In this document: one piece after another, positions 1 through 50,513 of the stretch | Numbering within the stretch: the stretch's first letter is position 1 | How the letters are laid out: each line of letters starts with the position of its first letter | NCBI GenBank assembly: GCA_041658185.1 | Contig: JBBAAR010000001.1 | Span: forward strand, 122,400-186,399 | From: Elusimicrobiota bacterium | GTDB taxonomy: Bacteria > Elusimicrobiota > UBA8919 | Length of the DNA stretch: 64,000 nt | Reading direction: 5' to 3' | Notes under the pieces: generated by a model | Databases searched by the model: none | What the model was told of the DNA's origin: nothing | What the model saw: only the letters and a program-made list of their open reading frames with translations | Made by a program: the position numbers and the translations under genes

Positions 1-801
1 CGCATATCCCTCAACGGTCGTGAACATAGGTCCCATTAAATCGGGTGCAACCAGATAAATGAAAAATGACAGCACAAAAGGAAGTAACGCCGTGATAGCG
101 CCCGAAAGTTTTCCCTGGGCGGTTAATGCTTCAATTTTCCCCTGCATCTCGTTTCTTTTTCTCATCGTCTCAGAAAGGGTTGTGAGCGCCTCCGACATAT
201 TTCCGCCGGTTTCTCTTGCAATATTTATTGCCGTCATCGCTATCCTCATTTCTTTGGATTTTTTGAGCCGCTCCGAGAGATTGTTCAACGCCTGCTCCAT
301 TGAAATACCTAATTTCAATTCCTGTGTTACCGTCTGAAACTCCTCCGCCAACGGCACTTGTCCCTGCTGGGCAATTACCTCAATCGCCTGGGCAAATGAC
401 AGCCCGCTTCTTAATGAGTTGGAAATAAGCACAAGCCCGTCTGATAATTGCTTATCAATAAGCCGCAAGCGTTTACTTTCCTCTCGTTTCAGCAAAATTA
501 TCGGGAAGAAAAAACCGAAAATACCGAATACAAGCGTGAAAAAAACATTGGTTGTTAAAATATATCCGCCCAAAAGAAAAGCTCCAAATGACATCATCCT
601 GAATTTCTGCGCCTGACGGCTTTTCGGATTCTCGGCAAATTTCGCGAAGAGTTGTTTTATTGACGGCGCTTTTTTAATCTGGTCGCCGGCAAAATATGTC
701 GCTTCTTTTACTTCGTCGCCAGACAAAAGCCGCATCACGAGCAGAAAGAAAAACCCGAACACGCAAACGATAATCAAAAAAGTAAGAAAAATTATTAGCA
801 T
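1..801 (-). CDS. TadB/TadC-like Flp pilus assembly inner-membrane protein (T2SS-F domain); C-terminus truncated by window start
   Basis: Minus-strand ORF absent from the ORF track because it runs off the edge; ATG at 801..799. My translation (MLIIFLTF...LSDGLVLISNSLRSGLSFAQAIEVIAQQG...KIEALTAQGKLSGAITALLPFVLSFFIYLVAPDLMGP) shows the GspF/TadB-C domain pattern and multiple TM helices. It lies directly upstream of cpaE/F and cpaB. Confidence 0.6.
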   Translation of the reverse strand, partial: MLIIFLTFLIIVCVFGFFFLLVMRLLSGDEVKEATYFAGDQIKKAPSIKQLFAKFAENPKSRQAQKFRMMSFGAFLLGGYILTTNVFFTLVFGIFGFFFPIILLKREESKRLRLIDKQLSDGLVLISNSLRSGLSFAQAIEVIAQQGQVPLAEEFQTVTQELKLGISMEQALNNLSERLKKSKEMRIAMTAINIARETGGNMSEALTTLSETMRKRNEMQGKIEALTAQGKLSGAITALLPFVLSFFIYLVAPDLMGPMFTTVEGYA

Positions 802-807
802 AAATTT

Positions 808-1281
808 CTACTGCCCGCTTCCATTTTCTCTCTCATCGGTATGTGCCAGCAGTACAAAATCCCTGACTGGAATCGTATCGCCGGGGCGGGCATCAATATA
901 TTGACTAATCGGTTCATCTGTTCCAGGATCTTGCGCACCGGTAAAATAATTTCTCTGCGAAAATGCCTGCAGGGTATATTTATCCGCAGAAGCCTTAAAA
1001 CCTATGACCCGGGTCACCTCAATAGAAAGTTCATACAAACCGTTTGCATCCGTCACTGCAGTTTCCGAATGTCCCACGCATCTTACAACTGCATCCCGCA
1101 GAGGACCATCCACAGTATATCTGGTATCTACAATTGCGCCGGTACCATCCGTTATATCCACTAATCGCGCCTGCAAAACTTTTCCCTTAAATTTTACTTC
1201 ATCCTCAAAACAGCCGGTCAATAAAAAAGGTAAAAGTAAAAAAGTAAAAGGTAAAAAGTAACGGCTGAAAGATTTTTTCAT
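808..1281 (-). CDS. small secreted lipoprotein (LLTGC lipobox), beta-sandwich-like, function unknown
   Basis: ORF 808..1293; the likely start is the internal MKKSF (ATG at 1281). Signal peptide plus Cys lipobox. Sits between the TadB-like gene and cpaE/F. Confidence 0.4.
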   Translation of the reverse strand: MKKSFSRYFLPFTFLLLPFLLTGCFEDEVKFKGKVLQARLVDITDGTGAIVDTRYTVDGPLRDAVVRCVGHSETAVTDANGLYELSIEVTRVIGFKASADKYTLQAFSQRNYFTGAQDPGTDEPISQYIDARPGDTIPVRDFVLLAHTDERENGSGQ

Positions 1282-1300
1282 AAACACCCCCAATAAACAT

Positions 1301-1348
1301 CAGAGCGGAGAGCGTAGTTTTCTGTCCTCTATGCTCTATCCTCTGCCT
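1301..1348. repeat. repeat family C (AGAGCrTAG tandem units followed by inverted CTATsCTCT units)
   Basis: cagagcggagagcgtag...tctgtcctctatgctctatcctctgcc in the intergenic region between the lipoprotein start and the cpaE/F stop. Confidence 0.6.
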
Positions 1349-3489
1349 CATCTGAATATTCCCATATCAAAAGATAATCCGTGCGATTTAACCTCGCTGA
1401 TAAATGACGGTATAACTCCCGTCGTACTGAAATCGCCGTCAACCTTACCTGTTGCGTCAATTCCGGTCTGCTTATAGACGAAAATATCCGCTAATGTGAT
1501 TGTATCTTTTTCAAGCCCCGTAATTTCTGTAATGTGCGTGATTTTTCTCGTTCCGTCGGAAAATCTGGATATTTGAACGATAACATCAATAGCGGCGGAG
1601 ACCTGACTTCTTATCGCATGCATGGGTAAATCCATTCCCGCCATAAGAACAAGCGTTTCCAGACGACTCAAACAGTCACGGGGCGCGTTTGCATGCACGG
1701 TTGTTAACGAGCCGTCGTGGCCCGTATTCATCGCCTGCAACATATCCAGCGCCTCGCCGCCGCGGCACTCTCCTACGACAATTCTGTCCGGTCTCATACG
1801 GAGCGAGTTGACCACAAGACGTCTGATGGTAATTTCTCCGGCGCCCTCAATGTTGGGAGGTCTGCTTTCAAGACGAACCCAGTGTTCCTGCGGAAGTTGG
1901 AGTTCTGCAGCATCTTCAATAGTTAAAATCCTTTCGCTTGCGGGAATAAAACTTGCTAAAATGTTCAACAGCGTTGTTTTACCGGAACCTGTTCCGCCTG
2001 AAATAATTATATTTTTCCGCAGTTGGACGCAGATCCTTAAAAACTCAATCATCTCCGGTGTGATAGAACTAAAATTGAGCAAATCCTTGAATGTGAAACG
2101 CTCTTTTGAAAATTTTCTGATGGTGAGGCAGGGTCCCACGAGAGATAAAGGCGGAATAACGGCATTTACCCGGGAGCCGTCTTTTAAACGCGCATCAACT
2201 AACGGAGAGGACTCGTCTATCCTTCTTCCTAAGGGTGTCACGATTCTTTCAATAACATTTAACAACTGCTGGTTAGTCGTAAATTTTTTATTCGTAAGAA
2301 AAATTTTTCCGGCGCGCTCTACATAGATTCTGTCGCGACCGTTAACCATAACCTCGGTGATGGTCGGGTCGCGAAGGAAATCTTCAAGAGGACCCAAACC
2401 GAGCGACTGGTCTAAAACCTCCATCACAAGCCGGACTCTGTCAACACGGGCGGTAAGTTTTTCACCCTCGGAATTTAATATGCGTTCAATCGCTTCCTGA
2501 ACCGTTTGTCTTGTTTCCGCTAATTTTTGTTTATCACCCGACGGCGAAAGTTCTATTCTTCTTTCTTTCATCTCGGCGACCAGTTTGTTGTAGACGCGCA
2601 TTTTTAATTCGTCCGTCGGAGGAAGAAGATTTCCGGAGGAGGATTTTACGGCGACAACCTCTTTTTCGCTTCGGGATGTCCGATGCTCTTTCCTTGTCTG
2701 CTCCATCGCATTTTTAAGTCCGACAAATAACCCGGCGCCTTGTTCTGCGCGGATGGTTTCTTCGGCAATGGTATTGACGATTGAATAAATCCCTCTTGAA
2801 AATGGCGAGCGGGTGGATGCGGTAACGGCGGGAACGCCTCTGTTTATTGACAGAACCGCGGAGTCGGCGTCAAAAGGAATAAGCCATGCCGGTCTCTGCT
2901 TGATGTATTCCGAAACCTGGTCAACGCTCAAACCGCCGGCGATGTCCGCTTTATTTAAAACAACTTTCAGCATCTGAGTCGGATAATGATTTATTATAAA
3001 CTGCTGCCAGACCTTTTTCGCGTGATAAAGAGATGCGAGTTCGGGTGTGGTAACCAGAACAACCATATCTATATTGTCCATAACTGCAATCTGCAAATCG
3101 TTGAAACTTCTGCCGATGTTGACAATAACATAATCGTAGACGGAGCCGAAAAATGAAACCGTTTTTTCCGCATATGACGGAAGGATTTTAACCGAATCGC
3201 CGGATTCTGAAACTGCTGAAAGAAAATCAATTCCCGAGGAGTGTTCTACGACATAACCCTTCAACATCTGGGGCGAAAGTTTATCTATGACGGAAAGTAA
3301 ATCCAATAATGATTTAGTTTGAGGAACTGCTAATAGCAGCGCTATCTCACCCGCCATCGCAAAATTGAAATCCAAAAGCGCCACCCGTTTTTTTGTCTGA
3401 GATTTGAGTGCTACGGCAAGATTAATAGCGACCAGCGTCTGTCCGACGCCGCCCTTTGAACCCATCACAGCAATTATTTTTCCTGACAT
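1348..3489 (-). CDS. fused CpaE/TadZ-like ParA-MinD ATPase domain + CpaF/TadA secretion ATPase (Tad pilus motor)
   Basis: N-terminus MSGKIIAVMGSKGGVGQTL (deviant Walker A of the ParA/MinD/CpaE type). C-terminal half carries the Walker A box IISGGTGSGKTT, then RILTIEDAAEL and VGECRGGEALDMLQAMNTGHDGSLTTVHAN, typical of VirB11/CpaF/TadA. The track ORF starts at 3573 with an alternative codon inside the GTGAA repeat; the ATG at 3489 is preferred. Confidence 0.8.
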   Translation of the reverse strand: MSGKIIAVMGSKGGVGQTLVAINLAVALKSQTKKRVALLDFNFAMAGEIALLLAVPQTKSLLDLLSVIDKLSPQMLKGYVVEHSSGIDFLSAVSESGDSVKILPSYAEKTVSFFGSVYDYVIVNIGRSFNDLQIAVMDNIDMVVLVTTPELASLYHAKKVWQQFIINHYPTQMLKVVLNKADIAGGLSVDQVSEYIKQRPAWLIPFDADSAVLSINRGVPAVTASTRSPFSRGIYSIVNTIAEETIRAEQGAGLFVGLKNAMEQTRKEHRTSRSEKEVVAVKSSSGNLLPPTDELKMRVYNKLVAEMKERRIELSPSGDKQKLAETRQTVQEAIERILNSEGEKLTARVDRVRLVMEVLDQSLGLGPLEDFLRDPTITEVMVNGRDRIYVERAGKIFLTNKKFTTNQQLLNVIERIVTPLGRRIDESSPLVDARLKDGSRVNAVIPPLSLVGPCLTIRKFSKERFTFKDLLNFSSITPEMIEFLRICVQLRKNIIISGGTGSGKTTLLNILASFIPASERILTIEDAAELQLPQEHWVRLESRPPNIEGAGEITIRRLVVNSLRMRPDRIVVGECRGGEALDMLQAMNTGHDGSLTTVHANAPRDCLSRLETLVLMAGMDLPMHAIRSQVSAAIDVIVQISRFSDGTRKITHITEITGLEKDTITLADIFVYKQTGIDATGKVDGDFSTTGVIPSFISEVKSHGLSFDMGIFR

Positions 3490-3510: not shown

Positions 3511-3590
3511 AGTGAACAAAAGTGGTGAAACAGTGAACGAAAGTGAATTGCACTTCCTCTCACTTCCTTTCACTTTCTTATACTGCCCTA
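3511..3590. repeat. repeat family A (GTGAA-type tandem units followed by inverted TTCAC units)
   Basis: agtgaacaaaagtggtgaaacagtgaacgaaagtgaattgcacttcctctcacttcctttcactttc in the cpaB-cpaE/F intergenic region. Confidence 0.6.
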
Positions 3591-4322
3591 TTTAGAGAAC
3601 ACTCCCATCGTAGTTGCACCGACACCTACGATGTTATGGTCGTTTAATCCGCGCAGCACCAGCCGAATCGTGCCTTTTTCCAAAGCAAGGGCTACCGCCT
3701 GTGCCTCGTAAGGCGAAACAGCCAGCGTGACCGTCGGCAGTATATCTTCCGACGGAGCGGACACATCTGCGATATTGGTAACCGACTGCGTTTTGGCAGC
3801 GGATGCTCCCAGAATATTCTGTTTCCATGCGAGAACAAGGACATTCTGCAAAACCGTTACGGATTTATCCTGCTCGTCAATTGTGCAAATCACATCTACA
3901 TAATTTCCGGGCTTTATCAGTTCCGCAACACCCGAGGCAGAATCAACATTTATTGAAATTGCTCTTTTATTCTCGGGAACAATTATCGCAAGCCCCGTAT
4001 CTTTACCGGGAGTTAAAAGTTTGGTGGAAACAATCTGTTCGCCCTGCATTACAGGAACCGCAGTCGCATAACTTTCATTTATAATTTGCGACACCGAATC
4101 AAGTGCTTTGGGCTGTTTGTACGCAGCGGGAACTTTTATCACATCAACATTATACTCTTTCAGGAGAGTTCCCTCGGCGATATCACCTCTTGCAATAAGC
4201 ACCTCCGTCATCTGAGCACCGCTGCGATATTTTATTTCCATACTGCGGACAAGCATAAATGTTAAGATAACGGCAAACAAACCCATAACGACGGCAATCA
4301 AAAGCACCTTTTTGTTTTTCAT
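3588..4322 (-). CDS. cpaB: Flp pilus assembly protein CpaB/RcpC
   Basis: N-terminal TM anchor, SAF-like region and RcpC-type beta domain. Directly downstream of the CpaE/F fusion. Confidence 0.7.
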   Translation of the reverse strand: MKNKKVLLIAVVMGLFAVILTFMLVRSMEIKYRSGAQMTEVLIARGDIAEGTLLKEYNVDVIKVPAAYKQPKALDSVSQIINESYATAVPVMQGEQIVSTKLLTPGKDTGLAIIVPENKRAISINVDSASGVAELIKPGNYVDVICTIDEQDKSVTVLQNVLVLAWKQNILGASAAKTQSVTNIADVSAPSEDILPTVTLAVSPYEAQAVALALEKGTIRLVLRGLNDHNIVGVGATTMGVFSK

Positions 4323-4506: not shown

Positions 4507-5550
4507 TTATCTTTCTGTTGTGATTTTGAGTGAAGTACCGTCGGTAAGAAGCGTAATTGTCCCGTTTTGGTCGGTCCGATAAATGTTTACGTTTCTGTCA
4601 ACAAGTTTTTTTACGGTTTCGTCGGCTGGATGTCCGAAAGTATTGCCCCTTCCGGAAGATATAACGGCGATATCCGGAGATACCCTGTCAAGAAACGGAG
4701 ACGAGGTGGATGTTTTTGAGCCGTGATGGGCGATTTTTAATACGGTGGATTTTAACTCGCCGCGCCAACTGACAAGGTCGTTTTCAGCTTCAAGTTCAAC
4801 ATCGCCTGTAAAAAGAAAGGATACATTTTGATATGTAATCTTTAGGACAATTGAAGAATTGTTCTCGTCGGATTTTGTACCTCTGTATTTACTAAGTGGT
4901 CCCAAAAACTTCATTAAAACACCGCCGCCCAAATCAACCGTTTCACCGACAGTCGGAACAACATATTTCGCCTTGGCATCCTTAACCTGCTGCAAAAATG
5001 TTTCATACAACGGATATGATTTCGGGAAATTGGCGTCATAAACAACTTTCGGAAAAATTTTATTTTCCATAAGCGTAACAAATCCGCCGTAATGGTCTGC
5101 ATGCGGATGGGTGGCGATGAAATAGTCAATAACAAGCGGTAAATGGTAAGTGGTAAGCGGCTGAAGTTCTTTTTGTAAATAAGGAATTATTACATTTTTC
5201 GCAGCATCCTCTTTTTCTTCGCTGGTTCCTTCACTTTCTTCAATAATATATCCTGGCTTTCCGCCGGCATCAATCAAAATTATTTTTTTAGAAGGCGTGA
5301 ATAAAAGCGTTGAGTCGCCCTGTCCAACGTCAAAAAATATAATTTTTAAAACTTTTGAAGGGTCACTGAACTCCTTGGATTTTGAGGACGGTTTAACAGC
5401 AAAGTAAATTGCCCACACAGATATGCACCCGATAAATAAAATAGCGGCGGTGATGTTACCGGCGTTAAAAATCTTTGATTCCTCGCCGGAACGGGCTTTT
5501 TTTGCCTCATCCTGTAATATCTGCCTGTACTTTTTAAATCTTGATTCCAT
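4507..5550 (-). CDS. standalone ComEC-type metallo-beta-lactamase-fold hydrolase, membrane-anchored and exported
   Basis: FFDVGQGDSTLLF...LIDAGG, HPHADHYGG, KIAHHGSKTS motifs of the ComEC/Rec2 C-terminal MBL domain, with an N-terminal TM helix. Start preferred at the ATG at 5550 (MESRFKK), because the track start lies inside a palindrome. Confidence 0.7.
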   Translation of the reverse strand: MESRFKKYRQILQDEAKKARSGEESKIFNAGNITAAILFIGCISVWAIYFAVKPSSKSKEFSDPSKVLKIIFFDVGQGDSTLLFTPSKKIILIDAGGKPGYIIEESEGTSEEKEDAAKNVIIPYLQKELQPLTTYHLPLVIDYFIATHPHADHYGGFVTLMENKIFPKVVYDANFPKSYPLYETFLQQVKDAKAKYVVPTVGETVDLGGGVLMKFLGPLSKYRGTKSDENNSSIVLKITYQNVSFLFTGDVELEAENDLVSWRGELKSTVLKIAHHGSKTSTSSPFLDRVSPDIAVISSGRGNTFGHPADETVKKLVDRNVNIYRTDQNGTITLLTDGTSLKITTER

Positions 5551-5560
5551 TTTAATACCA

Positions 5561-5680
5561 GTGAGTAAGTGAGTAGGAAGTAGTGTAGTTGCCGAGTTTG
5601 CTCGGCTGTTTGTAGTTGCAGACATTATATCTGCATAAAGCCAACCAAGGTTGGCAACTACTACTCGCTACTTACCTGAA
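5561..5680. repeat. complex 120-bp imperfect palindrome (family F) with nested perfect hairpins
   Basis: Outer arms are gtgagtaagtgagtaggaagtagtgtagttgcc and ggcaactactactcgctacttacc. Inner hairpins are gccgag-tttg-ctcggc and ccaacc-aa-ggttgg. Confidence 0.55.
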
Positions 5681-44256: not shown

Positions 44257-44258
44257 TA

Positions 44259-44942
44259 TTATTCCTCGTCATCCGGCTCGGGCAAAGCCTCTTCCGTTTT
44301 TGGAGATTTTTTCTTTTTTATCGTCTCTTTTTTATCTTTCGTTTCAACCTTTTGACCTTTCAATTTAGCAATTTTTTCTTTTGCATTTTCTGCTTTTTTG
44401 GAATCAGGGAAGTTATTTATAACTTTCTGATATTCCTCTATCGCCCTTTTATTATTTTTTATTTTTTCATAGCAATCACCTAACTCAAACTGTGCATTAG
44501 CCGCTTTTTTTGAATCAGGATATTTATCTATGACGGTCTGGTATGTTTTAATCGCACTCTCATATTTCTTCTGTTTTTTCTGGTAAATACCGCCAATCTG
44601 CAAAATTGCATCAACTGCTTTTTTTCTTTCCGGAAATTTATCTATCACCAGTTGGAACTCCTTAATTGCAACATCATAATCTTTCATTTTTGAATAACAG
44701 GTCCCTATATTATACTGCGCATCAGACGATTCTTTCGCTTCGGGATATTTTTTCAAAAAATTCTGATATGTTTTTATGGCTTCCGAATACTGCTTTTCTT
44801 TCTGCATCGCTTTTGCTTTCTGAAACAAATCATCTGTTTCGCAAAACAAAATGCCGCAGGAAAAAATTGCCAATACCAACCCTGCCAAATACTTTTTTCC
44901 GCACAAAGCGGATTTCACTTCGCTCAACACCGCGTTCAACAT
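44259..44942 (-). CDS. tetratricopeptide-repeat lipoprotein (YbgF-like TPR), Lys-rich C-terminal tail
   Basis: Signal peptide plus Cys, four or five TPR-like repeats (AQYNIGTCYSKMKDYDVAIKEFQ...), and a KKKKSPK tail. Confidence 0.55.
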   Translation of the reverse strand: MLNAVLSEVKSALCGKKYLAGLVLAIFSCGILFCETDDLFQKAKAMQKEKQYSEAIKTYQNFLKKYPEAKESSDAQYNIGTCYSKMKDYDVAIKEFQLVIDKFPERKKAVDAILQIGGIYQKKQKKYESAIKTYQTVIDKYPDSKKAANAQFELGDCYEKIKNNKRAIEEYQKVINNFPDSKKAENAKEKIAKLKGQKVETKDKKETIKKKKSPKTEEALPEPDDEE

Positions 44943-44944
44943 TT

Positions 44945-45592
44945 TTACCTCCCGTCCCGCTTCAGCGAGATCACTTTTTTTATTTCAAACATGATTTTTT
45001 CTATCTTGGGAATAAGATGGTCTATGCCCGGAGCATCGGTATCTATAACGAGGACCGGTATTTTTGATTTTTTCAATAACTCGTCTTTATCATCGTGAAG
45101 ATATGTTTTTTCCATTTCCTCCCGGGAAACCAGATGGTCGTCGGTACCCTTGGCAAGAGCTGCCTTATGCCTTGCAACATTTCTCTCCCAACAGGTCTCA
45201 AATGAACAATCGGAATAAATAATTATTGCATTGTCCAGGATTTTTTCTGAAAAATTTTTCATCGACGCCGCATAATTCGGACGGGAAAACTCTATGAAAA
45301 CAACGCGTTCATCTTTTTGCAACCCGCGAACATCCTTATCAACCTGCCGTAAAATTTCATCCCAAATACTATTATCGGTTACTAAATATCCGCCGTCGGG
45401 CGTTTTGCGGCATCTTTTCCATTTGCCTGTTTTTTCATCTTCCTGAAAAATATTCCACAACTTCGGAAAATCGTCAACTCTTAAAAAATCGTTGCAGATT
45501 TTTTCCTGACTTAATTTAGCGGTTATCCGGCGAAAGATTTCCGATTTGCCGCAGCCCGGCCGACCTAAAAGAAAAACATTTAAACAATTCAT
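44945..45592 (-). CDS. P-loop kinase-like ATP-binding protein (paralog of 48814..49446)
   Basis: Walker A FLLGRPGCGKS at the N-terminus; about 210 aa; its start overlaps the stop of the downstream TIM-barrel gene. Confidence 0.5.
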   Translation of the reverse strand: MNCLNVFLLGRPGCGKSEIFRRITAKLSQEKICNDFLRVDDFPKLWNIFQEDEKTGKWKRCRKTPDGGYLVTDNSIWDEILRQVDKDVRGLQKDERVVFIEFSRPNYAASMKNFSEKILDNAIIIYSDCSFETCWERNVARHKAALAKGTDDHLVSREEMEKTYLHDDKDELLKKSKIPVLVIDTDAPGIDHLIPKIEKIMFEIKKVISLKRDGR

Positions 45593-46560
45593 TAACCCAT
45601 AACCTCCCTTACATATTCCGCTTCCTTTTCCATTAACTCCCTTGTATTTAATAGTTCGTCAACTTCTCTCACCGCCGTTTCCATCACGACAATCTCAACT
45701 TTTTTGTGTCTAAAAATCTCAAAAAGTTTTTTAAGATTTTCTTTTTTGAGAAGGCCCGCCTGATAATGCAAAGGCGGATGAAATTTTTTAACCACGGGTA
45801 TATAATCGTTAAGATGGACCTGAGAGATATATTTATCGGGGATAGTCTCCATTATTTGCTCCGGCGGATTGGGGACTTGCTTGCCAAAATCTGCCCGAGT
45901 GAACCAGTGACCTATATCAAAACAGAATTTTACATTTTTTCCTTTCGGATCTATCATCTCAAGAATTTCAAGACATTCTTCAACATCAACCAGAATTGAA
46001 TCAAATGCGGTATTATTCTCAAGATGAAACATTATTCCCTTTTTTTGTGCGTACGGCACAAGTTCTTTGAGAGAGCGGATAAGGTTTTCTCTGACCAGTT
46101 TCCTGTAAAGTCCGACTGCCTGATAAAAAGGAACGGAACCGGGGTGCATAACGACATTTATACAGTTCAATTTCGCGGCAAAATCAATATATCTCTTTAA
46201 TAAATCAACCGCCATCTCACGGTCCTCTTTCTGAAATGCGCAGACGGCACTGCCGATATATGTGTACGGAAGATGGAAAGAAAGCGTGATATTTCTTTTT
46301 TCTGCTTCTTTTTTTGCTTTGGAAATTTCGGATGACGGCATTTGAAGATACGGATTTGGAATTCCTCCGTCCAACTCAACATGGTCAAGTGAAACCTCCG
46401 ACGCAACCTTAACCTGGTTAATAATATCCTTTTTGGCTTTATCCTGCACTTTGGCATCCATATCGGCGACTGTAAGCGTACCGGCTTTCAACTGCTTTTT
46501 TTCGGCTTCTGTTAAAAACGATGTGTTCAACAAATTTGTGAAATCTCTTCCTATTCTCAT
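45592..46560 (-). CDS. xylose-isomerase-like TIM-barrel protein of the endonuclease IV (AP endonuclease family 2) type
   Basis: Motifs in Nfo-like order: LSFHLPYTYIGS, VVMHPGS, MFHLENN, FCFDIGHWF, VHLNDY. Confidence 0.5.
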   Translation of the reverse strand: MRIGRDFTNLLNTSFLTEAEKKQLKAGTLTVADMDAKVQDKAKKDIINQVKVASEVSLDHVELDGGIPNPYLQMPSSEISKAKKEAEKRNITLSFHLPYTYIGSAVCAFQKEDREMAVDLLKRYIDFAAKLNCINVVMHPGSVPFYQAVGLYRKLVRENLIRSLKELVPYAQKKGIMFHLENNTAFDSILVDVEECLEILEMIDPKGKNVKFCFDIGHWFTRADFGKQVPNPPEQIMETIPDKYISQVHLNDYIPVVKKFHPPLHYQAGLLKKENLKKLFEIFRHKKVEIVVMETAVREVDELLNTRELMEKEAEYVREVMG

Positions 46561-46624
46561 AATACCTCCGTTAATTTTTTTCTGGATTTATTAAATCCGG
46601 CAATCGGCAAAAACCATGTTTCTG

Positions 46625-46690
46625 ACGGTAAAATCAATTCTATTCAACTACTTTCGTAGTTGCGAAACTAGTTGAATACCTTAAAAAAAT
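46625..46690. repeat. REP-like palindromic element (same family)
   Basis: tctattcaactactttcgtagttgcgaaactagttgaatacc, with competing caactac/gtagttg and tattcaact/agttgaata stems. Confidence 0.65.
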
Positions 46691-47547
46691 CAAATGTATT
46701 TTTCAACCAATAATTCAAGTTTTTTCTTTGTTTTCGGATTTATCGCTTTTGGGGACGTCATTATAGCATATTTTAGCGCATCTTTGCAAGAACAATTTCT
46801 TTCGCCCTGTAATTTTACAATAACACTCTTCACAAGTTTTTTTACATTTGTCGTTAAAACTTTCATATTCGCCATAACCTTTTCCGCCGAGACCTCTTCG
46901 CCCTCTTTCCAGACATCGTAATCGGTCGCCAAAGAAACGGTAGCAAAACATATTTCGGCTTCACGGGCAAGTTTTGCCTCGGGCAAATTTGTCATCCCTA
47001 TAACTAAAAAACCGAGCGAGCGATAAACTTTTGATTCCGCTTTCGTAGAAAATTGAGGTCCCTCAATACAAACATAGGTGCCGCCGTCATGAACTGGAAG
47101 GGCAAGCGATTTCGCCGTTTCAATTAAAATTTTTCTTAACTGCGGGCAATACGGTTCGGCAAAACCTACATGCGCAACAATACCATCGCCGAAAAATGTA
47201 GAAGGTCTTGATTTTGTCCTGTCAAAAAGTTGGTCGGGAATAACAAAATCCCTCGGTTTTATTTCTTCTCTCAGCGAACCGCAGGCGGAAATGGATATAA
47301 TTTTTTCAACTCCGATTTTTTTAAGAGCAAAAATGTTGGCCCGCGAGTTCACTTCCGACGGCATAATTTTGTGTCCCACGGCATGACGCGGAAGAAACGC
47401 AACTTTCACGCCTTCAAGTTCGCCGATACGAATTTTATCGGACGGCAAACCGAAAGGAGTTTTTATTTCCAGCTCTTTCAGTATTTTTATTCCTTCAATT
47501 TCGTAGACACCGCTTCCGCCGATAATTGCGATTTTTACTTCATTCAT
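46690..47547 (-). CDS. mtnP: S-methyl-5'-thioadenosine phosphorylase / purine nucleoside phosphorylase
   Basis: VKIAIIGGSGVYE, LPRHAVGHKIMPSEVNSRANIFALKKIGVEKIISISACGSLREEIKPRDFVIPDQ: strong match to the MTAP/PNP family. Confidence 0.8.
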   Translation of the reverse strand: MNEVKIAIIGGSGVYEIEGIKILKELEIKTPFGLPSDKIRIGELEGVKVAFLPRHAVGHKIMPSEVNSRANIFALKKIGVEKIISISACGSLREEIKPRDFVIPDQLFDRTKSRPSTFFGDGIVAHVGFAEPYCPQLRKILIETAKSLALPVHDGGTYVCIEGPQFSTKAESKVYRSLGFLVIGMTNLPEAKLAREAEICFATVSLATDYDVWKEGEEVSAEKVMANMKVLTTNVKKLVKSVIVKLQGERNCSCKDALKYAIMTSPKAINPKTKKKLELLVEKYI

Positions 47548-48827
47548 TACTTTTTACCTCCGGTAAGATTTGAATAAACTTCAAAAAAATCCTTCATAGT
47601 ATTAAAAAGTGAAACACCCGAAGATCTAGTTCTAAACTCTGCCGCCATCGGGTGACCGCCGCCGGAAATTATACCTTTATTGCCGAATTTTGAAACAAGT
47701 TTTTCAGTCATCTGCGAAGCAATATTGCCGCAGTGAATTTTATCGGTGTTTGCGCGGAAAGAAATATGTACGCCGTTTTTTTCGCCGAGCCAGTTAAACA
47801 TAATAAGTACCGCCGGATTGCCCAGTTCGTAAAGTTTTACCGAGCCGACCATCGGCATCAAGGAGACATTGCTTCCCATAAAAATATACACACCGGCACC
47901 GTCAACTTTGTCCAGAAGCGCCGCATTATCAAACATATTTTTTGATTTATTCCAGTCATCAAGAAAACATTGATATATTTTCCCGGCCAAATCTTTACGG
48001 GGCATTTGTCCCACAAATTCGTCAAGCGAACCGTAATCTTTTGCGTTGAGAGCAAGAAGCGTTTCAAATGCAAAGTTAACCTGTTTTTTGTTTTTTAATT
48101 CGGGGATATTATCGTTATAAAAATACTGAAATCCGCCTCCTGATAGTGCAAAATAAAATTCTCCTATCTGGTTTAATGCCGTTGTTTTTTCTCTCTGATT
48201 AACTTCAAACATCGTCGGACGGGATGATATTTTTTTTACAAGGTTCGGAAATTTTTTTGCCGCTTCGTCATAAAACTGTTTCGCCAGCGGCGCTACAATA
48301 TCGGTCGCCGGTTCAATCGCCCAATCGCCTTTTAATCCTATAAGCGTCAAAAAATCATCAAGGTCTTCTCTTAAACCAAGCGCCTCGGATATCATATTGC
48401 ATAAAATCGCAGCCGAGCAAAAAGTGTAATTCGGCACGGAAGGATTGAGAATTACGCACCTTTCAGGCAACGCCCCTATTAAAGGATGATGGTCAATAAT
48501 AACGACATCTTTTATCAAATCCACATATTCGTTGTAATAGCCCATTGTTGCCTTATCAATTATAAAAAGTATGTCATATTTTTTTTGTTTGAGTTCTTCT
48601 TCAATGCGAAATTTTTCTAATTCCATAGTTTCGGGAATTTTTACGGTTATATCGGCACCGAGTTTTTTCAGCATTCTAAAGATTATTGCACCGGATGTCA
48701 GCCCGTCCGGATCATCGTGAAAAAAAACAAGGCATTTTTTGCCTTTTACATTTTTCAATAATTCAACCGTTTTTTTGAAACCTTCCGATTTTTCCAATTG
48801 CTCTTTTACAAATTCAGAATAACTCAT
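47547..48827 (-). CDS. DHH/DHHA1-family phosphoesterase (NrnA-like oligoribonuclease/pAp phosphatase or RecJ-like)
   Basis: VFFHDDPDGLTSGA, IIDHHP (DHH) and ISGGGHPMAAEF (DHHA1 GGGH). Confidence 0.7.
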   Translation of the reverse strand: MSYSEFVKEQLEKSEGFKKTVELLKNVKGKKCLVFFHDDPDGLTSGAIIFRMLKKLGADITVKIPETMELEKFRIEEELKQKKYDILFIIDKATMGYYNEYVDLIKDVVIIDHHPLIGALPERCVILNPSVPNYTFCSAAILCNMISEALGLREDLDDFLTLIGLKGDWAIEPATDIVAPLAKQFYDEAAKKFPNLVKKISSRPTMFEVNQREKTTALNQIGEFYFALSGGGFQYFYNDNIPELKNKKQVNFAFETLLALNAKDYGSLDEFVGQMPRKDLAGKIYQCFLDDWNKSKNMFDNAALLDKVDGAGVYIFMGSNVSLMPMVGSVKLYELGNPAVLIMFNWLGEKNGVHISFRANTDKIHCGNIASQMTEKLVSKFGNKGIISGGGHPMAAEFRTRSSGVSLFNTMKDFFEVYSNLTGGKK

Positions 48828-49446
48828 TTATCACCTCTTTTTCAATCTGCTTTCTTAAATTTTCCATACCAGTTTTTCCGGAAACGGTACTGTCAATAAC
48901 AATCGTTTTCGCCGGAACAATTTTCATTAACTCTTTTTCTGATTTTAGATATACCTGCTCATAATCGTCGGTTTTGTAATATGTTTTCATCAAATCCAAC
49001 GGAACTATATGGTCGTCGTGCCCGTCCTTTTTTGCTTTCTGAAATCTTGCGACATTTCTTTTGTAACATTCCTCTAAAGTGCTGTAAAGATACAGGATAA
49101 TGGAATCATCCAGAACATCTTTTGTGAAATTTTCAAATGCATGTTGATAATTATCACGCGCAAATTCTATGAAAATAATTTTTTTGTCAGCTTTTTCTTT
49201 TTTTACCAATTTACACAAATCACTAAGCGCCTCGTCAACAACCGTCCAGTCGGTAACCGCGAAACCTCCGTCTTTCAGGATATGCCTTTTGAACTCTTTG
49301 TCTCTGGCAAGAATTTCTTTAAGCGTTAAAAAATCGTCAAGCCGCGGGGCATAAATTTCTTTTTTTTCCAAAATTTCTTTTATTATTTTATAAACCACAG
49401 ATTTTCCGCAACCCGGTCTGCCCAATAAAAAAACAAAATGTTTCAC
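48814..49446 (-). CDS. P-loop kinase-like ATP-binding protein (paralog of 44945..45592)
   Basis: FLLGRPGCGKS Walker A; same length and architecture as 44945..45592; overlaps both neighbours. Confidence 0.5.
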   Translation of the reverse strand: MKHFVFLLGRPGCGKSVVYKIIKEILEKKEIYAPRLDDFLTLKEILARDKEFKRHILKDGGFAVTDWTVVDEALSDLCKLVKKEKADKKIIFIEFARDNYQHAFENFTKDVLDDSIILYLYSTLEECYKRNVARFQKAKKDGHDDHIVPLDLMKTYYKTDDYEQVYLKSEKELMKIVPAKTIVIDSTVSGKTGMENLRKQIEKEVINELF

Positions 49447-50429
49447 TTAAAAATCTCCTTTACATATTTCATCTCTGCATCTATTATGTTTTTTCTGTCT
49501 TTTACCTGTTCAAGCATTTTGAATGCCGTTTCAAGTAAAATTAATTCCGGATTTTTCGTTTTAAGAATTTTCCAGTAATTCTCAAGATTTTCTCTCTTTA
49601 AAGGACCTTTCGTTTGATTCAAGGGCGGGTGGAATGTGAACTGCTTCTGCGGGTCCCATGATGACGGAACAAAATCGTTCAGGTGAACCTCGCATATAAA
49701 ATCATCGGGAATAATTTTGAGGATTTCTTCCGGGTTTTTGGGAATTTCTTTGCCTTTTTCGGCGCGGGTGAACCAGTGACCGATATCAAAATTAAAATAA
49801 ATTTTAGCACCGTTGGAACGCACCGCTTTTACAACTTCTATGCAATCTTCCGGCTCAACGAATAAACTATCAAATGAAACATTATTTTCAATGTGGAGTT
49901 TAAGCCCTTTATCATTGGCATATTTTCCGATCTCCGTGAACGATTTTACGACCGAGTTAAAAAACTGTTTCATGTAAATATCTGAAATCATATAAAACGG
50001 AGCGGTGCCGGGATGCATTACAAGATATTTGGCACCGACATCAGACGCAAAATCAACATAAACATTTTGGAGTTTTACGGCGCACGAACGGTCCAATTCC
50101 TGCAAACTTGAAATAGAAGAACCGGCATTGGAATAAGATAAATGAACCGACAGTGAAATACCGTTATCCTCGGCGAATTTTTTTATTTTTTTCCGGCTCT
50201 CTTTTGAAAACTCCGGATACGGGTTCGGCACGTCGCAGTCAAGTTCTACATGGTCAAGACCGAGTTCTTTCGCTTTTTTTATCTGAAACTCAACATTTTT
50301 CTTGAACTTAACAAGCCCGAGCGCGTTCATAGAAAAAAGCGACAAAGTTCCGTTTAGGATTTTTTCCTGCTCCCCTTTTTCCAGCACATCAAATACAAAA
50401 GTGTTAGTAAAGTTTCTGCCGATTTTCAT
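49443..50429 (-). CDS. endonuclease-IV-like xylose-isomerase-fold TIM-barrel protein (paralog of 45592..46560)
   Basis: LSVHLSYSNAGSS, LVMHPGTAP, LHIENN, FNFDIGHWF and VHLNDF, the same motif series as its paralog. Confidence 0.5.
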   Translation of the reverse strand: MKIGRNFTNTFVFDVLEKGEQEKILNGTLSLFSMNALGLVKFKKNVEFQIKKAKELGLDHVELDCDVPNPYPEFSKESRKKIKKFAEDNGISLSVHLSYSNAGSSISSLQELDRSCAVKLQNVYVDFASDVGAKYLVMHPGTAPFYMISDIYMKQFFNSVVKSFTEIGKYANDKGLKLHIENNVSFDSLFVEPEDCIEVVKAVRSNGAKIYFNFDIGHWFTRAEKGKEIPKNPEEILKIIPDDFICEVHLNDFVPSSWDPQKQFTFHPPLNQTKGPLKRENLENYWKILKTKNPELILLETAFKMLEQVKDRKNIIDAEMKYVKEIFK

Positions 50430-50513
50430 TAGGACTCCTTAACTATATTTTTATTTTTTTGACAACTTTTTCACTACTGAAAAAGTTACGATTTTTGAAT
50501 TTTAACAAATTTA

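What the first reader, a model, noticed from the sequence alone, without database searches (positions are those of the whole stretch)
1..50430. About 50-kb co-directional island combining a Tad pilus, two ComEC, ComEA-barrels, secreted nucleases and nucleoside salvage: candidate eDNA capture, uptake and catabolism system
All genes from 1 to 50430 are on the minus strand. They assemble pieces that normally belong to different systems:
- a Tad-type pilus (TadB-like, CpaE-CpaF fusion, CpaB);
- two full ComEC and three exported ComEC-MBL domains;
- barrel-ComEA fusions;
- secreted S1/P1-like and PLD/HKD nucleases, a Cas4-like membrane nuclease and a UvrD helicase;
- LTD surface proteins, an M6 protease and a tandem SpoVG-like protein;
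- adenosine deaminase, MTA/purine nucleoside phosphorylase, a DHH phosphoesterase and Endo IV-like plus kinase pairs.

Established knowledge: Tad pili, not only type IV pili, are needed for transformation in Micrococcus luteus, and the ComEC MBL domain is a nuclease. Inference: the island encodes DNA capture at the surface, degradation of one strand or excess DNA, import through ComEC, and nucleoside salvage. No secretin, prepilin or prepilin peptidase lies inside the window; they may lie upstream of position 1.
Basis: partly seen in the sequence, partly recalled or inferred. Interest (0 to 1): 0.8.

Follow-up and report, generated by a model that had tools for sequence, protein, structure and literature searches.

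The report
Composite DNA-uptake gene cluster in Elusimicrobiota
A groundwater Elusimicrobiota genome carries a conserved gene cluster that fuses outer-membrane barrels to DNA-binding ComEA domains and pairs them with exported nucleases and a ComEC channel whose own nuclease domain is dead, most likely a variant DNA-import machine, whereas the Tad pilus and nucleoside-salvage genes beside it are only local neighbours.

Summary
All genes from 1 to 50429 are on the minus strand, and most domain calls pass profile searches. The second full ComEC is the exception. It lies outside the block, on the plus strand (50515-52746).

The 50 kb is not one conserved unit. Relatives with 29-72% protein identity keep a smaller set together:
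- a triad of PD-(D/E)XK nuclease, a small membrane protein and a long ComEC with a dead MBL domain, found even in Lindowbacteria;
- in Elusimicrobiota, also a PorV-like 14-strand barrel with two ComEA domains, a ComEA domain fused to a roughly 26-strand barrel, more PorV/FadL-like barrels, a CTD-tagged protease, LTD and SpoVG-like proteins, a PLD nuclease and stand-alone ComEC-type MBLs.

Tad and UvrD are adjacent only in relatives at 87% identity or more. The nucleoside-salvage genes were found in none of 91 related loci.

Best reading: a variant envelope machine for DNA capture and import, with nucleases acting in trans. I rate it a new variant of a known kind. All function is inferred from sequence.

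The parts
1..807 (-). N-terminal part of a TadB-like (T2SSF) platform protein. The gene runs off the window. A neighbour, not part of the conserved cluster.
   Evidence: Translation. The full 291-aa T2SSF gene, followed by a second T2SSF gene, is on the source contig.
808..1281 (-). 157-aa lipoprotein with no family match, between CpaF and TadB.
1348..3468 (-). Fusion of a ParA/CpaE(TadZ)-like domain and a CpaF-type Tad ATPase (706 aa as called on the contig).
   Evidence: Pfam T2SSE 207 bits plus ParA/CbiA. PDB CpaF E 5e-126, and ParA 3ea0 for the N-terminus.
3588..4322 (-). CpaB/RcpC.
   Evidence: Pfam RcpC 88 bits.
4507..5625 (-). Membrane-anchored exported ComEC-type MBL with an intact motif II (THPHADH). 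Its ortholog sits next to the long ComEC in distant relatives.
   Evidence: Orthologs in L014 (38%) and L015 (44%).
5672..8050 (-). UvrD/PcrA-type helicase, probably housekeeping. Adjacent only in close relatives.
8052..9137 (-). Exported protein of the Zn-dependent PLC / P1-nuclease superfamily with C-terminal TPRs. Nuclease assignment not established.
   Evidence: Pfam Zn_dep_PLPC 38 bits. No PDB sequence hit. The mature N-terminus would be W-x4-H, read.
9134..9882 (-). Cas4-like PD-(D/E)XK nuclease, apparently split: a 49-aa ORF (9733-9882) carrying the N-terminal Cys motif, and a 201-aa ORF (9134-9739) with a TM segment, the RecB motifs and CxxCx5C.
   Evidence: The same split layout occurs in L010. 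Relatives carry 576-655-aa double PDDEXK_1 proteins in this neighbourhood.
9979..12867 (-). Long ComEC paralog (962 aa): OB/DUF4131, competence channel, and an MBL-like domain with a destroyed metal-binding motif II (SPETGN).
   Evidence: 0 of 120 homologs keep motif II.
12957..13280 (-). Small single-TM protein with a conserved SNAxYYP motif. It always sits directly upstream of the long ComEC, including in Lindowbacteria.
13359..14444 (-). PorV/PorQ-family 14-strand outer-membrane barrel.
   Evidence: NCBIfam PorV_fam 137.8 bits against a cut-off of 90.
14441..16333 (-). Secreted M6 metalloprotease with a T9SS-type C-terminal domain. In relatives the slot is filled by S8 or C1 proteases.
16327..17670 (-). 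FadL/PorV/BamG-like outer-membrane barrel.
17664..19256 (-). Read as one ORF: a 23S_rRNA_IVP four-helix-bundle ORF (about 18918-19256) followed by a FadL-like barrel with its own signal peptide.
19325..20566 (-). PorV/FadL-like barrel, paralog of the two preceding barrels.
20606..22681 (-). Signal peptide, ComEA-type HhH domain (residues 79-139), then a roughly 26-strand outer-membrane barrel (151-689). Candidate outer-membrane DNA conduit.
22711..24330 (-). Signal peptide, PorV/FadL-type 14-strand barrel, then two ComEA HhH domains on flexible periplasmic linkers.
24332..24700 (-). 23S_rRNA_IVP four-helix-bundle ORF lying in the loop of a 45-nt inverted repeat. An insert, not part of the machine.
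24732..27056 (-). Surface protein with LTD, TP_1001-type domains and a CTD.
   Evidence: Orthologs in L007, L008, L017 and L021.
27174..27791 (-). Exported protein with two SpoVG-like domains.
   Evidence: Pfam SpoVG 51 bits, two stretches. Signal peptide read. Orthologs in L007 and L008.
27897..29447 (-). PorP/PorV-like barrel, TPR and a C-terminal ComEA HhH domain.
29506..36378 (-). 2290-aa surface protein with fn3 repeats, an LTD-like segment and a CTD.
   Evidence: Partial ortholog in L008.
36593..37582 (-). Lipoprotein ComEC-type MBL with motif II HPDGDH.
   Evidence: Orthologs in L008 and L021.
37579..38496 (-). Exported ComEC-type MBL with motif II HAHADH.
38603..39532 (-). PorV/PorQ-family barrel.
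   Evidence: PorV_fam 188 bits against a cut-off of 90. Orthologs in L008 and L021.
39650..39985 (-). ArsR-family regulator, overlapping the stop codon of the PLD gene.
39982..41430 (-). Secreted two-HKD PLD (Nuc/Zucchini-like) with a T9SS-type CTD.
   Evidence: Pfam PLDc_2 127 bits. PDB MitoPLD, Nuc and PG93 CTD. Ortholog in L008.
41539..41757 (-). Small DUF3006 protein.
41788..50429 (-). Lineage-specific neighbour block: P-loop protein (41788-42975), adenosine deaminase (43222-44256), TPR protein (44259-44942), kinase plus AP_endonuc_2 (44945-46560), MTA/purine nucleoside phosphorylase (46690-47547), RecJ-like DHH protein (47547-48827), kinase plus AP_endonuc_2 (48814-50429).
   Evidence: No homolog in 91 related loci.
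50515..52746 (+). Canonical three-domain ComEC, divergently transcribed. Motif II reads HPHINH (Asp replaced by Asn). A ComEC of this type ends the cluster in GCA_964476445.1.

Best explanation
The window holds a conserved envelope gene cluster of Elusimicrobiota for capturing and importing extracellular DNA. It is flanked by two lineage-specific neighbours: a Tad pilus locus and a nucleoside-salvage operon.

**Proposed mechanism.** Steps marked [shown] rest on sequence or structure evidence obtained here. Steps marked [inferred] do not.

1. Surface proteins carrying a T9SS-type C-terminal domain are displayed on PorV-family barrels: the LTD/TP_1001 protein, the 2290-aa fn3 protein, a Nuc/Zucchini-type PLD nuclease, and an exchangeable protease. 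[Domains shown; display, DNA binding and cutting inferred.]
2. DNA or DNA fragments cross the outer membrane. The best candidate conduit is the roughly 26-strand barrel with an N-terminal ComEA domain (20606-22681). It is always paired with the PorV-like 14-strand barrel that dangles two ComEA domains into the periplasm (22711-24330). [Architecture and conserved pairing shown; conduit role inferred. The nearby Tad/secretin system could do this step instead.]
3. The outer-membrane-tethered ComEA domains and the exported tandem SpoVG-like protein hold incoming DNA in the periplasm, as ComEA does in known systems. [Inferred.]
4. Three exported stand-alone ComEC-type MBLs with intact metal-binding motifs degrade one strand or trim the DNA. 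They work in trans, because the long ComEC has lost motif II and the canonical ComEC carries an Asp-to-Asn change. [Motif states shown; trans action inferred. Streptococcus pneumoniae EndA is the precedent.]
5. The long ComEC and its conserved single-TM partner pass single-stranded DNA into the cytoplasm. A PD-(D/E)XK (Cas4/AddB-like) nuclease encoded beside it processes that DNA. [Conserved triad shown; activity inferred.]

I lean towards DNA being imported mainly as a nutrient through the long ComEC, with the canonical ComEC available for transformation. In this lineage the RecJ-like DHH protein, adenosine deaminase and MTA/purine nucleoside phosphorylase next door would finish the breakdown.
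For: **Organism and source.** Elusimicrobiota metagenome contig.

**DNA theme.**
- Two ComEC genes and three further ComEC-type MBL domains.
- A PLD whose nearest solved relatives are MitoPLD/Zucchini and Nuc.

**Architectures.**
- AF2 model of 22711-24330: a 14-strand barrel at pLDDT above 90, best PDB match PorV in the T9SS complex (8gl6_F), then FadL. Two HhH domains follow on disordered linkers.
- AF2 model of 20606-22681: HhH domain plus a roughly 26-strand barrel, pTM 0.74. Nearest solved barrels are FimD/PapC ushers, MtrB and LptD.

**Conserved linkage.**
- The two ComEA-barrel genes are adjacent in five lineages at 29-54% identity (window, L005, L007, L008, L022).
- GCA_964476445.1, at about 35% identity, keeps these genes on one strand: fn3 protein, PorP-like barrel, SpoVG, PLD+CTD, PorV, MBL, LTD/TP_1001, both ComEA barrels, FadL/PorV-like barrels, CTD protease, small protein, long ComEC, PDDEXK, MBL, SLBB and a second ComEC. 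The PLD-PorV-MBL module sits at a different position there, so proximity survives rearrangement.
- The triad of PDDEXK, small TM protein (SNAxYYP) and long ComEC recurs in L014, L015 and a Lindowbacteria genome.

**Dead nuclease domain.** 0 of 120 homologs of the long ComEC retain motif II. The stand-alone MBLs do retain it.

**Protease slot.** The slot is filled by M6, C1 or S8 enzymes with the same CTD. This is non-orthologous displacement, implying selection for the function.

**Precedents.** ComEC with an inactive MBL plus a separate nuclease, EndA (PMC8579336, PMC12455585). The ComEC MBL domain is a nuclease (same papers).
Against: - No experiment exists. Every function is inferred from domains and gene order in uncultivated organisms.
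- PorV/PorP-like barrels with CTD-tagged proteins could simply be a surface-protein sorting cluster.
- No DprA, ComF, ComM or pilin gene lies in the cluster.
- The PD-(D/E)XK gene in this window is short and split, and it is not a detectable sequence ortholog of the large ones in relatives.
- GCA_040757695.1 lacks the MBL and PDDEXK genes next to its long ComEC.
- Synteny rests on about eight informative contigs.
- The nutritional reading relies partly on the salvage block, which is not conserved with the cluster.
Confidence: 0.55

Rival explanations
1. One reading: the whole 50 kb is one integrated system. Tad pili capture DNA, nucleases process it, ComEC imports it, and the salvage enzymes catabolise it, all as a single co-inherited island.
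For: - All parts are adjacent and co-directional here and in the 91% relative L010.
- Tad pili are needed for transformation in Micrococcus luteus (PMC4322843) and for DNA uptake 'for food' in Liberibacter (PMC8513845).
- An LTD+TPR protein and a secretin lie in the Tad-downstream operon.
- A palindromic element is shared by six intergenic gaps linking the nuclease/MBL/PorV genes and the salvage genes.
Against: - Tad genes are absent next to the cluster in three more distant genomes.
- Salvage genes are absent from all 91 related loci.
- No pilin or prepilin peptidase was found within the window plus 9 kb.
- GC3 shifts at 36.4 kb, so the block is compositionally mosaic.
- Co-orientation follows the replication bias and extends beyond the block.
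Confidence: 0.15
2. The barrel-rich part is a T9SS-like cluster for sorting and anchoring surface proteins. PorV/PorP-like barrels would carry CTD-tagged adhesins, a protease and a nuclease, serving adhesion or binding of matrix eDNA in biofilms. In this reading DNA import is not its function, and the ComEC genes are merely adjacent.
For: - PorV_fam hits are above cut-off for two barrels, and PorV is the best structural match for a third.
- CTD hits occur on four proteins, including similarity to the Porphyromonas gingivalis PG93 CTD.
- A giant fn3 adhesin-like protein is present.
- LTD nucleases such as ExeM act on matrix eDNA (PMC6085458).
Against: - The ComEA domains follow an even-stranded barrel, or precede one directly after the signal peptide. 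They are therefore predicted to be periplasmic, where only incoming DNA would be a ligand.
- The long ComEC, its small partner and ComEC-type MBLs travel with the barrels in several lineages.
- No T9SS core gene lies in the window.
Confidence: 0.15
3. Chance juxtaposition of unrelated systems on the leading strand: an adhesion pilus, outer-membrane proteins, competence genes, repair genes and salvage genes, with no functional unit larger than ordinary operons.
For: - Negative GC skew across the whole window, and continuation of the same strand beyond both ends of the claimed block.
- UvrD, Tad and salvage genes are not conserved neighbours.
- PADLOC hits are generic superfamily matches only.
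Against: - A colinear set of about 20 genes is kept at about 35% protein identity in GCA_964476445.1, and subsets are kept in five further contigs.
- The DNA-related domain content is far denser than in flanking DNA.
Confidence: 0.1

Closest known systems
Canonical diderm competence machinery (type IV pilus with PilQ secretin, periplasmic ComEA, inner-membrane ComEC; Vibrio, Neisseria, Thermus)
   Same: ComEA-type HhH DNA-binding domains are predicted to be periplasmic. ComEC has OB and channel domains. An MBL-type nuclease activity is associated with ComEC.
   Different: - ComEA domains are fused to outer-membrane barrels rather than being free or anchored to the inner membrane.
- The conserved cluster holds no pilus genes.
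- The main ComEC has a dead MBL domain, and separate exported MBLs are present.
- It also includes PorV/FadL-type barrels and CTD-tagged surface proteins.
Streptococcus pneumoniae ComEC with the EndA nuclease
   Same: The ComEC MBL domain has substituted metal ligands, and a separate membrane-bound nuclease degrades the non-transported strand (PMC8579336, PMC12455585). This parallels the dead MBL plus trans-acting MBLs seen here.
   Different: The trans nucleases here are themselves ComEC-type MBL domains, not EndA-type. There are three of them. The organism is a diderm.
Type IX secretion PorV/PorP barrels and CTD cargo (Bacteroidota)
   Same: A 14-strand FadL-like barrel whose best structural match is PorV (8gl6_F). 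PorV_fam HMM hits. Cargo-like proteins with Por_Secre_tail/CHU_C/FlgD_ig-type C-terminal domains.
   Different: - Some barrels carry periplasmic ComEA or TPR extensions.
- No SprA or PorKLMN genes are seen in the window.
- The phylum is outside Bacteroidota.
- The barrels are linked to ComEC genes.
Tad (Flp, type IVc) pilus-dependent DNA uptake in Micrococcus luteus and Liberibacter crescens
   Same: CpaF, CpaE-like, CpaB, TadB and TadC genes lie next to competence genes in this genome. These pili support transformation or DNA uptake for food in those species (PMC4322843, PMC8513845).
   Different: The adjacency is confined to close relatives. No Flp pilin or TadV was found locally. There is no experimental link here.
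Helicobacter pylori two-step uptake (ComB type IV secretion system at the outer membrane, ComEC at the inner membrane)
   Same: It is a precedent for a DNA route across the outer membrane that does not use type IV pili, combined with a ComEC lacking the MBL domain (PMC12455585).
   Different: No T4SS genes occur here. The candidate outer-membrane component is a single large barrel fused to ComEA.
eDNA-foraging gene sets (Shewanella ExeM-type LTD nucleases; marine sediment DNA degraders)
   Same: LTD-bearing surface proteins, secreted nucleases, nucleoside phosphorylase and adenosine deaminase (PMC6085458, PMC8289736).
   Different: Those sets are not described with ComEC/ComEA-barrel machinery. 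Here the LTD proteins carry no recognised nuclease domain.

Membership tests
Tad (type IVc) pilus | CpaF/TadA-type ATPase | tested here: met
   Pfam T2SSE 207 bits. PDB CpaF 8rkd, E 5e-126.
Tad (type IVc) pilus | Two platform proteins, TadB and TadC | tested here: met
   TadB N-terminus at 1-807. Two 291-aa T2SSF genes on the contig.
Tad (type IVc) pilus | CpaB/RcpC and a CpaE/TadZ ParA-like protein | tested here: met
   RcpC 88 bits. The ParA-like domain is fused to CpaF.
Tad (type IVc) pilus | Secretin (RcpA/CpaC) | tested here: met
   307-aa Secretin-domain protein (135.7 bits) about 6 kb beyond window position 1. It is short and lies outside the window.
Tad (type IVc) pilus | Flp prepilin and TadV/CpaA prepilin peptidase | tested here: not met
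   No prepilin-type motif in six-frame translations of the window and 9 kb beyond it. None appears among the called genes. They may lie elsewhere in the genome.
ComEC/Rec2 | OB fold (DUF4131) plus competence channel domain | tested here: met
   Both 9979-12867 and 50515-52746 have them.
ComEC/Rec2 | C-terminal MBL nuclease domain with metal-binding motif II (H-x-[HD]-x-D-H) | tested here: not met
   The long ComEC reads SPETGN, and 0 of 120 homologs keep the motif. The canonical ComEC reads HPHINH (Asp to Asn), so its activity is uncertain. The Asp residues are needed for activity (PMC8579336, PMC12455585).
ComEA | HhH (HHH_3 / TIGR00426) DNA-binding domain | tested here: met
ComEA | Free periplasmic or inner-membrane-anchored protein, with an SLBB or N-terminal domain in many | tested here: not met
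   The HhH domains are fused to 14-strand or roughly 26-strand outer-membrane barrels. A separate SLBB protein is seen only in relative L014.
ComEA | Binds double-stranded DNA | not testable with these tools
   Needs EMSA or similar. The LPGIG hairpin motif is present in the family consensus.
T9SS PorV/PorQ/PorP barrels | FadL-like 14-strand barrel matching the PorV_fam model | tested here: met
   13359-14444 scores 137.8 bits and 38603-39532 scores 188.2 bits against a cut-off of 90. The fusion proteins score 56-65 bits, below cut-off, but PorV 8gl6_F is the best structural match.
T9SS PorV/PorQ/PorP barrels | T9SS core (SprA/Sov, PorK/L/M/N) in the genome | not tested
   None in the 64-kb window.
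S1/P1 nuclease | Match to the S1-P1_nuclease family | tested here: not met
   Only Zn_dep_PLPC (38 bits) was hit. No PDB sequence hit. It belongs to the same structural superfamily, so nuclease activity is not excluded.
PLD/HKD nuclease (Nuc/Zucchini type) | HKD domains closest to known nucleases | tested here: inconclusive
   PLDc_2 127 bits, two stretches. Best PDB hits are MitoPLD/Zucchini (E 3e-9) and Nuc (E 1e-4). The substrate was not tested.
Nucleoside salvage enzymes | Adenosine deaminase and MTA phosphorylase equivalog models above cut-off | tested here: met
   TIGR01430 scores 333.7 against 216.6. TIGR01694 scores 325.8 against 274.9.
Endonuclease IV | nfo family model above cut-off | tested here: not met
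   TIGR00587 scores 33 bits against 129.7. Only a generic AP_endonuc_2 TIM barrel is supported. The nearest PDB entry is MJ1311, of unknown function.
RecJ | RecJ equivalog above cut-off | tested here: not met
   59 bits against 360-397. Only the DHH and DHHA1 domains are supported.

The most novel reading that the evidence does not exclude
The roughly 26-strand barrel fused to a ComEA domain, with its obligate partner the PorV-like barrel carrying two ComEA domains, would be a previously unrecognised route for DNA across the outer membrane that needs neither pilus nor secretin. It would feed a nuclease-dead ComEC paralog specialised for importing DNA as food. The barrel family has at least 399 representative clusters in metagenomes, and one member is annotated from a Deltaproteobacteria MAG. 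If true, this would be a third kind of outer-membrane DNA uptake, after type IV pilus/PilQ and the Helicobacter ComB system.
Probability: 0.2. Interest if true: 0.85.

Novelty: new variant of a known kind. Interest (0 to 1): 0.62.

Why it matters
How DNA crosses the outer membrane is known for only two machine types, and uptake by uncultivated phyla is inferred almost entirely from type IV pilus plus ComEC gene counts.

This cluster points to a different layout:
- DNA-binding ComEA domains are built into outer-membrane barrels.
- The ComEC nuclease activity is moved onto separate exported proteins.
- A widespread ComEC paralog with a dead nuclease domain is paired across phyla with a PD-(D/E)XK nuclease and a tiny membrane protein.

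If the reading is right, it provides concrete proteins whose DNA binding, conductance and nuclease activity can be tested. It also provides a marker set for DNA-scavenging lifestyles in groundwater bacteria.

It is also a caution. A striking 50-kb co-directional "island" broke down into one conserved core plus unrelated neighbours once relatives were examined.

Tried and rejected
**Anti-phage defence island.** PADLOC gave only generic superfamily hits (UvrD to GajB/RTasHel, Cas4, MBL, PLD to DrmC) and no complete system. Rejected.

**Known structured RNAs.** No Rfam family reached its gathering score in the window.

**Pilin search.** Regular-expression scans for type IV and Flp prepilin motifs in six frames of the window and L096 found nothing.

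**Phase variation at the 5' tandem repeats.** The only independent assemblies of the same strain (L002, L004) are 100% identical, so there is no evidence either way.

**The palindromic element at 36.4-46.7 kb as terminator or promoter.** The T-run precedes rather than follows the hairpin on the sense strand. The sigma-70 scan was not above background (56 found, 42 expected). Its role is unresolved.

**Searches that fell short.**
- The genome-contig scan with the long ComEC returned only relatives at 90% or more.
- The metagenome scan with the barrel-ComEA alignment was dominated by generic ComEA hits. Seven of the 80 loci covered the barrel (L016-L022), of which two (L017, L022) were long enough to show gene neighbours.
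- Two exact look-ups of the CpaF fusion failed because of start-codon choice.
- The afdb50 fold library was unavailable.

**Horizontal transfer of 1-36.4 kb.** GC3 is higher there (0.40-0.47 against about 0.36). I could not test the cause.

Full report
**Source and organism**

The window is part of a 197.6-kb metagenome contig, ENA ERZ27247322 k141_333455. It corresponds to record positions 11317-75316, reversed. Source databases name identical or near-identical proteins as Elusimicrobiota. The closest genomes, at about 90% protein identity, are groundwater and Crystal Geyser Elusimicrobia MAGs.

**Checking the observation**

All substantial ORFs from 1 to 50429 are on the minus strand.
- Tad genes: TadB-like N-terminus (1-807), ParA/CpaE-CpaF fusion (CpaF, E 5e-126) and CpaB.
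- DNA enzymes: UvrD, a Cas4-like PD-(D/E)XK and a two-HKD PLD.
- A ComEC (9979-12867) and three exported stand-alone MBLs.
- Three barrel proteins carrying ComEA-type HhH domains.
- Surface and exported proteins: M6 protease, LTD proteins and a tandem SpoVG-like protein.
- Salvage-type genes: adenosine deaminase, MTA/purine nucleoside phosphorylase, a DHH/DHHA1 protein and two AP_endonuc_2 plus kinase pairs.

Five points need correction:
- The second full ComEC lies at 50515-52746 on the plus strand, outside the block.
- The 'S1/P1-like' protein matches Zn_dep_PLPC only.
- The 'Endo IV-like' proteins are generic TIM barrels, far below the nfo cut-off.
- The Cas4-like gene is split into two frames, in this window and in a 91% relative.
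- The co-directional run does not stop at position 1. It continues through TadB, TadC, sCache, TPR, LTD+TPR, DUF192, a 307-aa secretin, a PilB-like ATPase, an HD-GYP protein and NadA.

GC skew is negative over the whole window, so co-orientation partly reflects the replication strand bias.

**Is the block conserved?**

I anchored on the barrel-ComEA protein and on the long ComEC, and read the neighbourhoods of homologs at decreasing identity.

*GCA_964476445.1, about 35% identity.* These genes sit on one strand, followed by housekeeping genes:
- a giant fn3-like protein, a PorP-like barrel and a SpoVG-like protein;
- PLD with CTD, PorV and an MBL;
- an LTD/TP_1001 protein;
- the barrel with two HhH domains and the HhH-large-barrel protein;
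- FadL/PorV-like barrels and an S8 protease;
- the small protein, the long ComEC and a 616-aa PDDEXK protein;
- an MBL, an SLBB protein and a second ComEC.

The PLD-PorV-MBL module sits at a different place than in the window, so the genes stay together despite rearrangement.

*GCA_040757695.1, 72% identity for the long ComEC.* It keeps the run from SpoVG through to the long ComEC. ClpB and housekeeping genes follow directly.

*Other contigs.*
- L005 keeps the stretch from the barrel-ComEA gene to the protease, preceded by DnaE.
- L022 (29%) keeps only the pair of ComEA-barrel genes.
- L017 keeps the LTD protein and the barrel-ComEA gene next to CinA.
- L015 (41%) and a Lindowbacteria genome, L097 (34%), keep only PDDEXK, the small protein and the long ComEC. 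L015 also has an MBL.

A tblastn of every window protein against the 91 foreign loci summarises the picture:
- Tad genes occur only in the 91% relative L010, and UvrD only in the 87-90% relatives L010 and L011.
- The genes from 41788 to 50429 have no hit anywhere.
- The core genes recur.

The 50 kb therefore breaks down into three parts: a conserved core (about 4.5-41.4 kb plus the canonical ComEC), a Tad neighbour and a salvage neighbour.

**What the core looks like**

*The long ComEC.* It has the OB fold and the channel domain, but its MBL-like domain reads SPETGN where H-x-[HD]-x-D-H should be. None of its 120 best homologs, from several phyla, retains the motif. Mutating those residues abolishes nuclease activity and impairs transformation (PMC8579336, PMC12455585). 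The canonical ComEC reads HPHINH.

*The stand-alone MBLs.* All three keep the ligands: THPHADH, SHPDGDH and SHAHADH. They carry a TM anchor, a lipoprotein signal and a signal peptide respectively. The ortholog of the 4507-5625 MBL sits beside the long ComEC in L014 and L015. This mirrors Streptococcus pneumoniae, where a ComEC with substituted ligands works with the separate nuclease EndA (PMC8579336).

*The small partner.* A single-TM protein with a conserved SNAxYYP motif always precedes the long ComEC, even in Lindowbacteria.

*The barrels.* Seven genes encode paralogous 14-strand PorV/FadL-type barrels, 24-34% identical to one another.
- The AF2 model of 22711-24330 shows a confident 14-strand barrel. 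Its best PDB match is PorV in the T9SS complex, then FadL. A disordered linker, an HhH domain, a proline-rich linker and a second HhH domain follow. With an even strand number, the C-terminal domains should be periplasmic.
- 27897-29447 is a similar barrel with a TPR and an HhH domain.
- A full HMMER search found 399 representative clusters at E ≤ 1e-30, and nearly all of the best 150 listed match over their full length. The few with source names are annotated only as hypothetical or HhH-domain proteins, and one comes from a Deltaproteobacteria MAG.

*Surface proteins.* Four proteins carry T9SS-type C-terminal domains: the protease, the LTD protein, the giant fn3 protein and the PLD. The PLD tail resembles the Porphyromonas gingivalis PG93 CTD. 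The protease slot is filled by M6 here, a papain-like C1 enzyme in the 91% relative, and S8 elsewhere, always with the same tail.

**Mechanism**

Putting this together, the proposed order of events is as follows.
1. CTD-tagged surface proteins, including a nuclease and a protease, engage extracellular DNA.
2. DNA crosses the outer membrane, through the large ComEA-fused barrel or through a pilus/secretin system.
3. Outer-membrane-tethered ComEA domains and the exported SpoVG-like protein retain it in the periplasm.
4. Exported ComEC-type MBLs cut it in trans.
5. The long ComEC and its small partner import a single strand.
6. A PD-(D/E)XK nuclease processes that strand in the cytoplasm.

Domain identities, architectures, motif states and gene linkage are shown. 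Every activity and the order of events are inferred. I lean towards a nutritional role for the long-ComEC branch because it is tied across phyla to a nuclease rather than to DprA or ComF. This is weakly supported.

**The neighbours**

*Tad.* Tad systems are known in Elusimicrobia (PMC6668835). Tad pili support transformation in Micrococcus luteus (PMC4322843) and DNA uptake for food in Liberibacter (PMC8513845). Cooperation is therefore plausible, and an LTD+TPR protein sits in the secretin operon. The adjacency, however, is recent.

*Salvage block.* It shares a palindromic intergenic element (TATTCAACTACTTTCG...CGAAAGTAGTTGAATA) with the MBL, PorV, PLD and giant-protein genes. The element occupies six gaps between 36.4 and 46.7 kb and occurs nowhere else in the window or the fetched loci. 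An ArsR-family gene lies in the middle. This hints at local co-regulation but is untested.

**Comparison with known systems and novelty**

The cluster works like a competence and DNA-uptake apparatus and uses ComEC and ComEA modules. It fails two defining features of the canonical parts: an active ComEC MBL domain, and a free or inner-membrane-anchored ComEA. It also borrows PorV/CTD elements otherwise tied to type IX secretion.

Full-text searches found no paper on ComEA joined to PorV-type barrels and none tying Elusimicrobia ComEC to such a cluster. I rate it a new variant of a known kind.

The boldest reading not excluded is a pilus-independent outer-membrane DNA channel. I give that about 0.2 probability.

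**Limits**

- Synteny rests on about eight informative contigs.
- I could not inspect the rest of the genome for pilins, PilQ, DprA, T9SS core genes or nucleotide biosynthesis.
- Structure models were built from 18-sequence alignments.

Noticed in passing
window 3469-3587, 5580-5665, 9010-9130, 12870-13361, 14302-14450, 17545-17660, 22570-22715, 27783-27900, 29320-29510, 37480-37575; L010 1290-1395, 2610-2715, 5522-5670, 6630-6710, 11065-11170: Most cluster genes start inside a long hairpin made of two complementary tandem-repeat tracts with units of 7-13 nt. The purine-rich arm lies in the 5' UTR. The pyrimidine-rich arm is translated as the hydrophobic core of the signal peptide. RNA folds give z of -3.4 to -5.8 for 10 of the 12 tested (one further at -2.4, one not significant) and -5.4 for 29320-29510. 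The 91% relative L010 has hairpins at the orthologous gene starts but built from different repeat units, so the structure is kept while the sequence is replaced. The housekeeping part of the window has none. The cause is unknown. Candidates are translation control, RNase III processing, slipped-strand phase variation or a repeat-generating DNA process.
   Followed up: partly
window 18863-19299 and 24288-24725; also 12877-13361; L007 9716-10254: Two 23S_rRNA_IVP (four-helix-bundle, bAvd-like) ORFs each sit in the roughly 350-nt loop of a 43-45-nt inverted repeat, as in ribosomal intervening sequences. The 3' arm doubles as the signal peptide of the next barrel gene. The small ComEC-partner gene is bracketed the same way. 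One IVP ORF reads through in frame into the FadL-like barrel ORF, in this window and in GCA_040757695.1.
   Followed up: partly
window 36459-36511, 38521-38600, 39599-39659, 41458-41492, 43165-43219, 46637-46689: A palindromic intergenic element (TATTCAACTACTTTCG ... CGAAAGTAGTTGAATAGGTTTTGTTTTACCGAC) occupies six gaps upstream of the giant-protein, MBL, PorV, PLD, P-loop and TIM-barrel genes. Some copies hold a nested CCCTTTAGGG-type palindrome. It is absent from the rest of the window and from all 96 loci fetched up to that point. An ArsR-family gene (39650-39985) lies in the middle. It may be an operator or a local REP-like element.
   Followed up: partly
window 1-36400 versus 36600-64000: There is a compositional step at the end of the giant gene. 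GC3 is about 0.40-0.47 to the left and about 0.29-0.42 (mean near 0.36) to the right. The close-relative bins are labelled 38% GC. The left part (Tad to giant protein) may have a different history or expression level.
   Followed up: partly
window 9134-9882; L010 10307-11066: The Cas4-like nuclease is split. The first Fe-S cysteine motif lies in a 49-aa ORF in another frame, and the main ORF starts with a TM-like segment. The same layout appears in an independent 91% relative, so it is probably not a sequencing error. Relatives carry 576-655-aa double PD-(D/E)XK proteins instead.
   Followed up: partly
window 14441-16333; L010 3927-5513; L005 17728-19482; L007 13878-15617; L008 16294-17910: The same cluster slot holds a secreted protease of three unrelated catalytic classes: M6 metallo, C1 papain-like and S8 subtilisin. 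All carry a similar C-terminal sorting domain. This is non-orthologous displacement, present even between 91% relatives.
   Followed up: yes
window 20606-22681: The protein family with a ComEA HhH domain and a large barrel is much larger than the word-index search suggested: 17 hits there, against 399 representative clusters at E ≤ 1e-30 in a full HMMER search. Nearly all of the best 150 listed are 600-810 aa and match over most of the profile. Available names are only 'hypothetical' or 'helix-hairpin-helix domain-containing', and one is from a Deltaproteobacteria MAG.
   Followed up: partly
window 50515-52746: The canonical ComEC has Asn in place of the second motif II aspartate (HPHINH). The organism may therefore have no ComEC with a fully canonical nuclease site.
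   Followed up: no
window 55216-57749; L096 19091-20245: Two tandem GGDEF diguanylate cyclases lie just beyond the canonical ComEC, NadK and RecN genes. A GAF plus HD-GYP-type protein follows the PilB-like ATPase beyond position 1. This suggests possible c-di-GMP control of the pilus or uptake genes.
   Followed up: no
L096 14506-17113 (beyond window position 1): An LTD+TPR protein, a DUF192 protein and a short 307-aa secretin follow TadC, and a PilB/MshE-type ATPase follows them. The pilus region therefore mixes Tad and type IVa/T2SS-like parts and again contains an LTD domain.
   Followed up: partly
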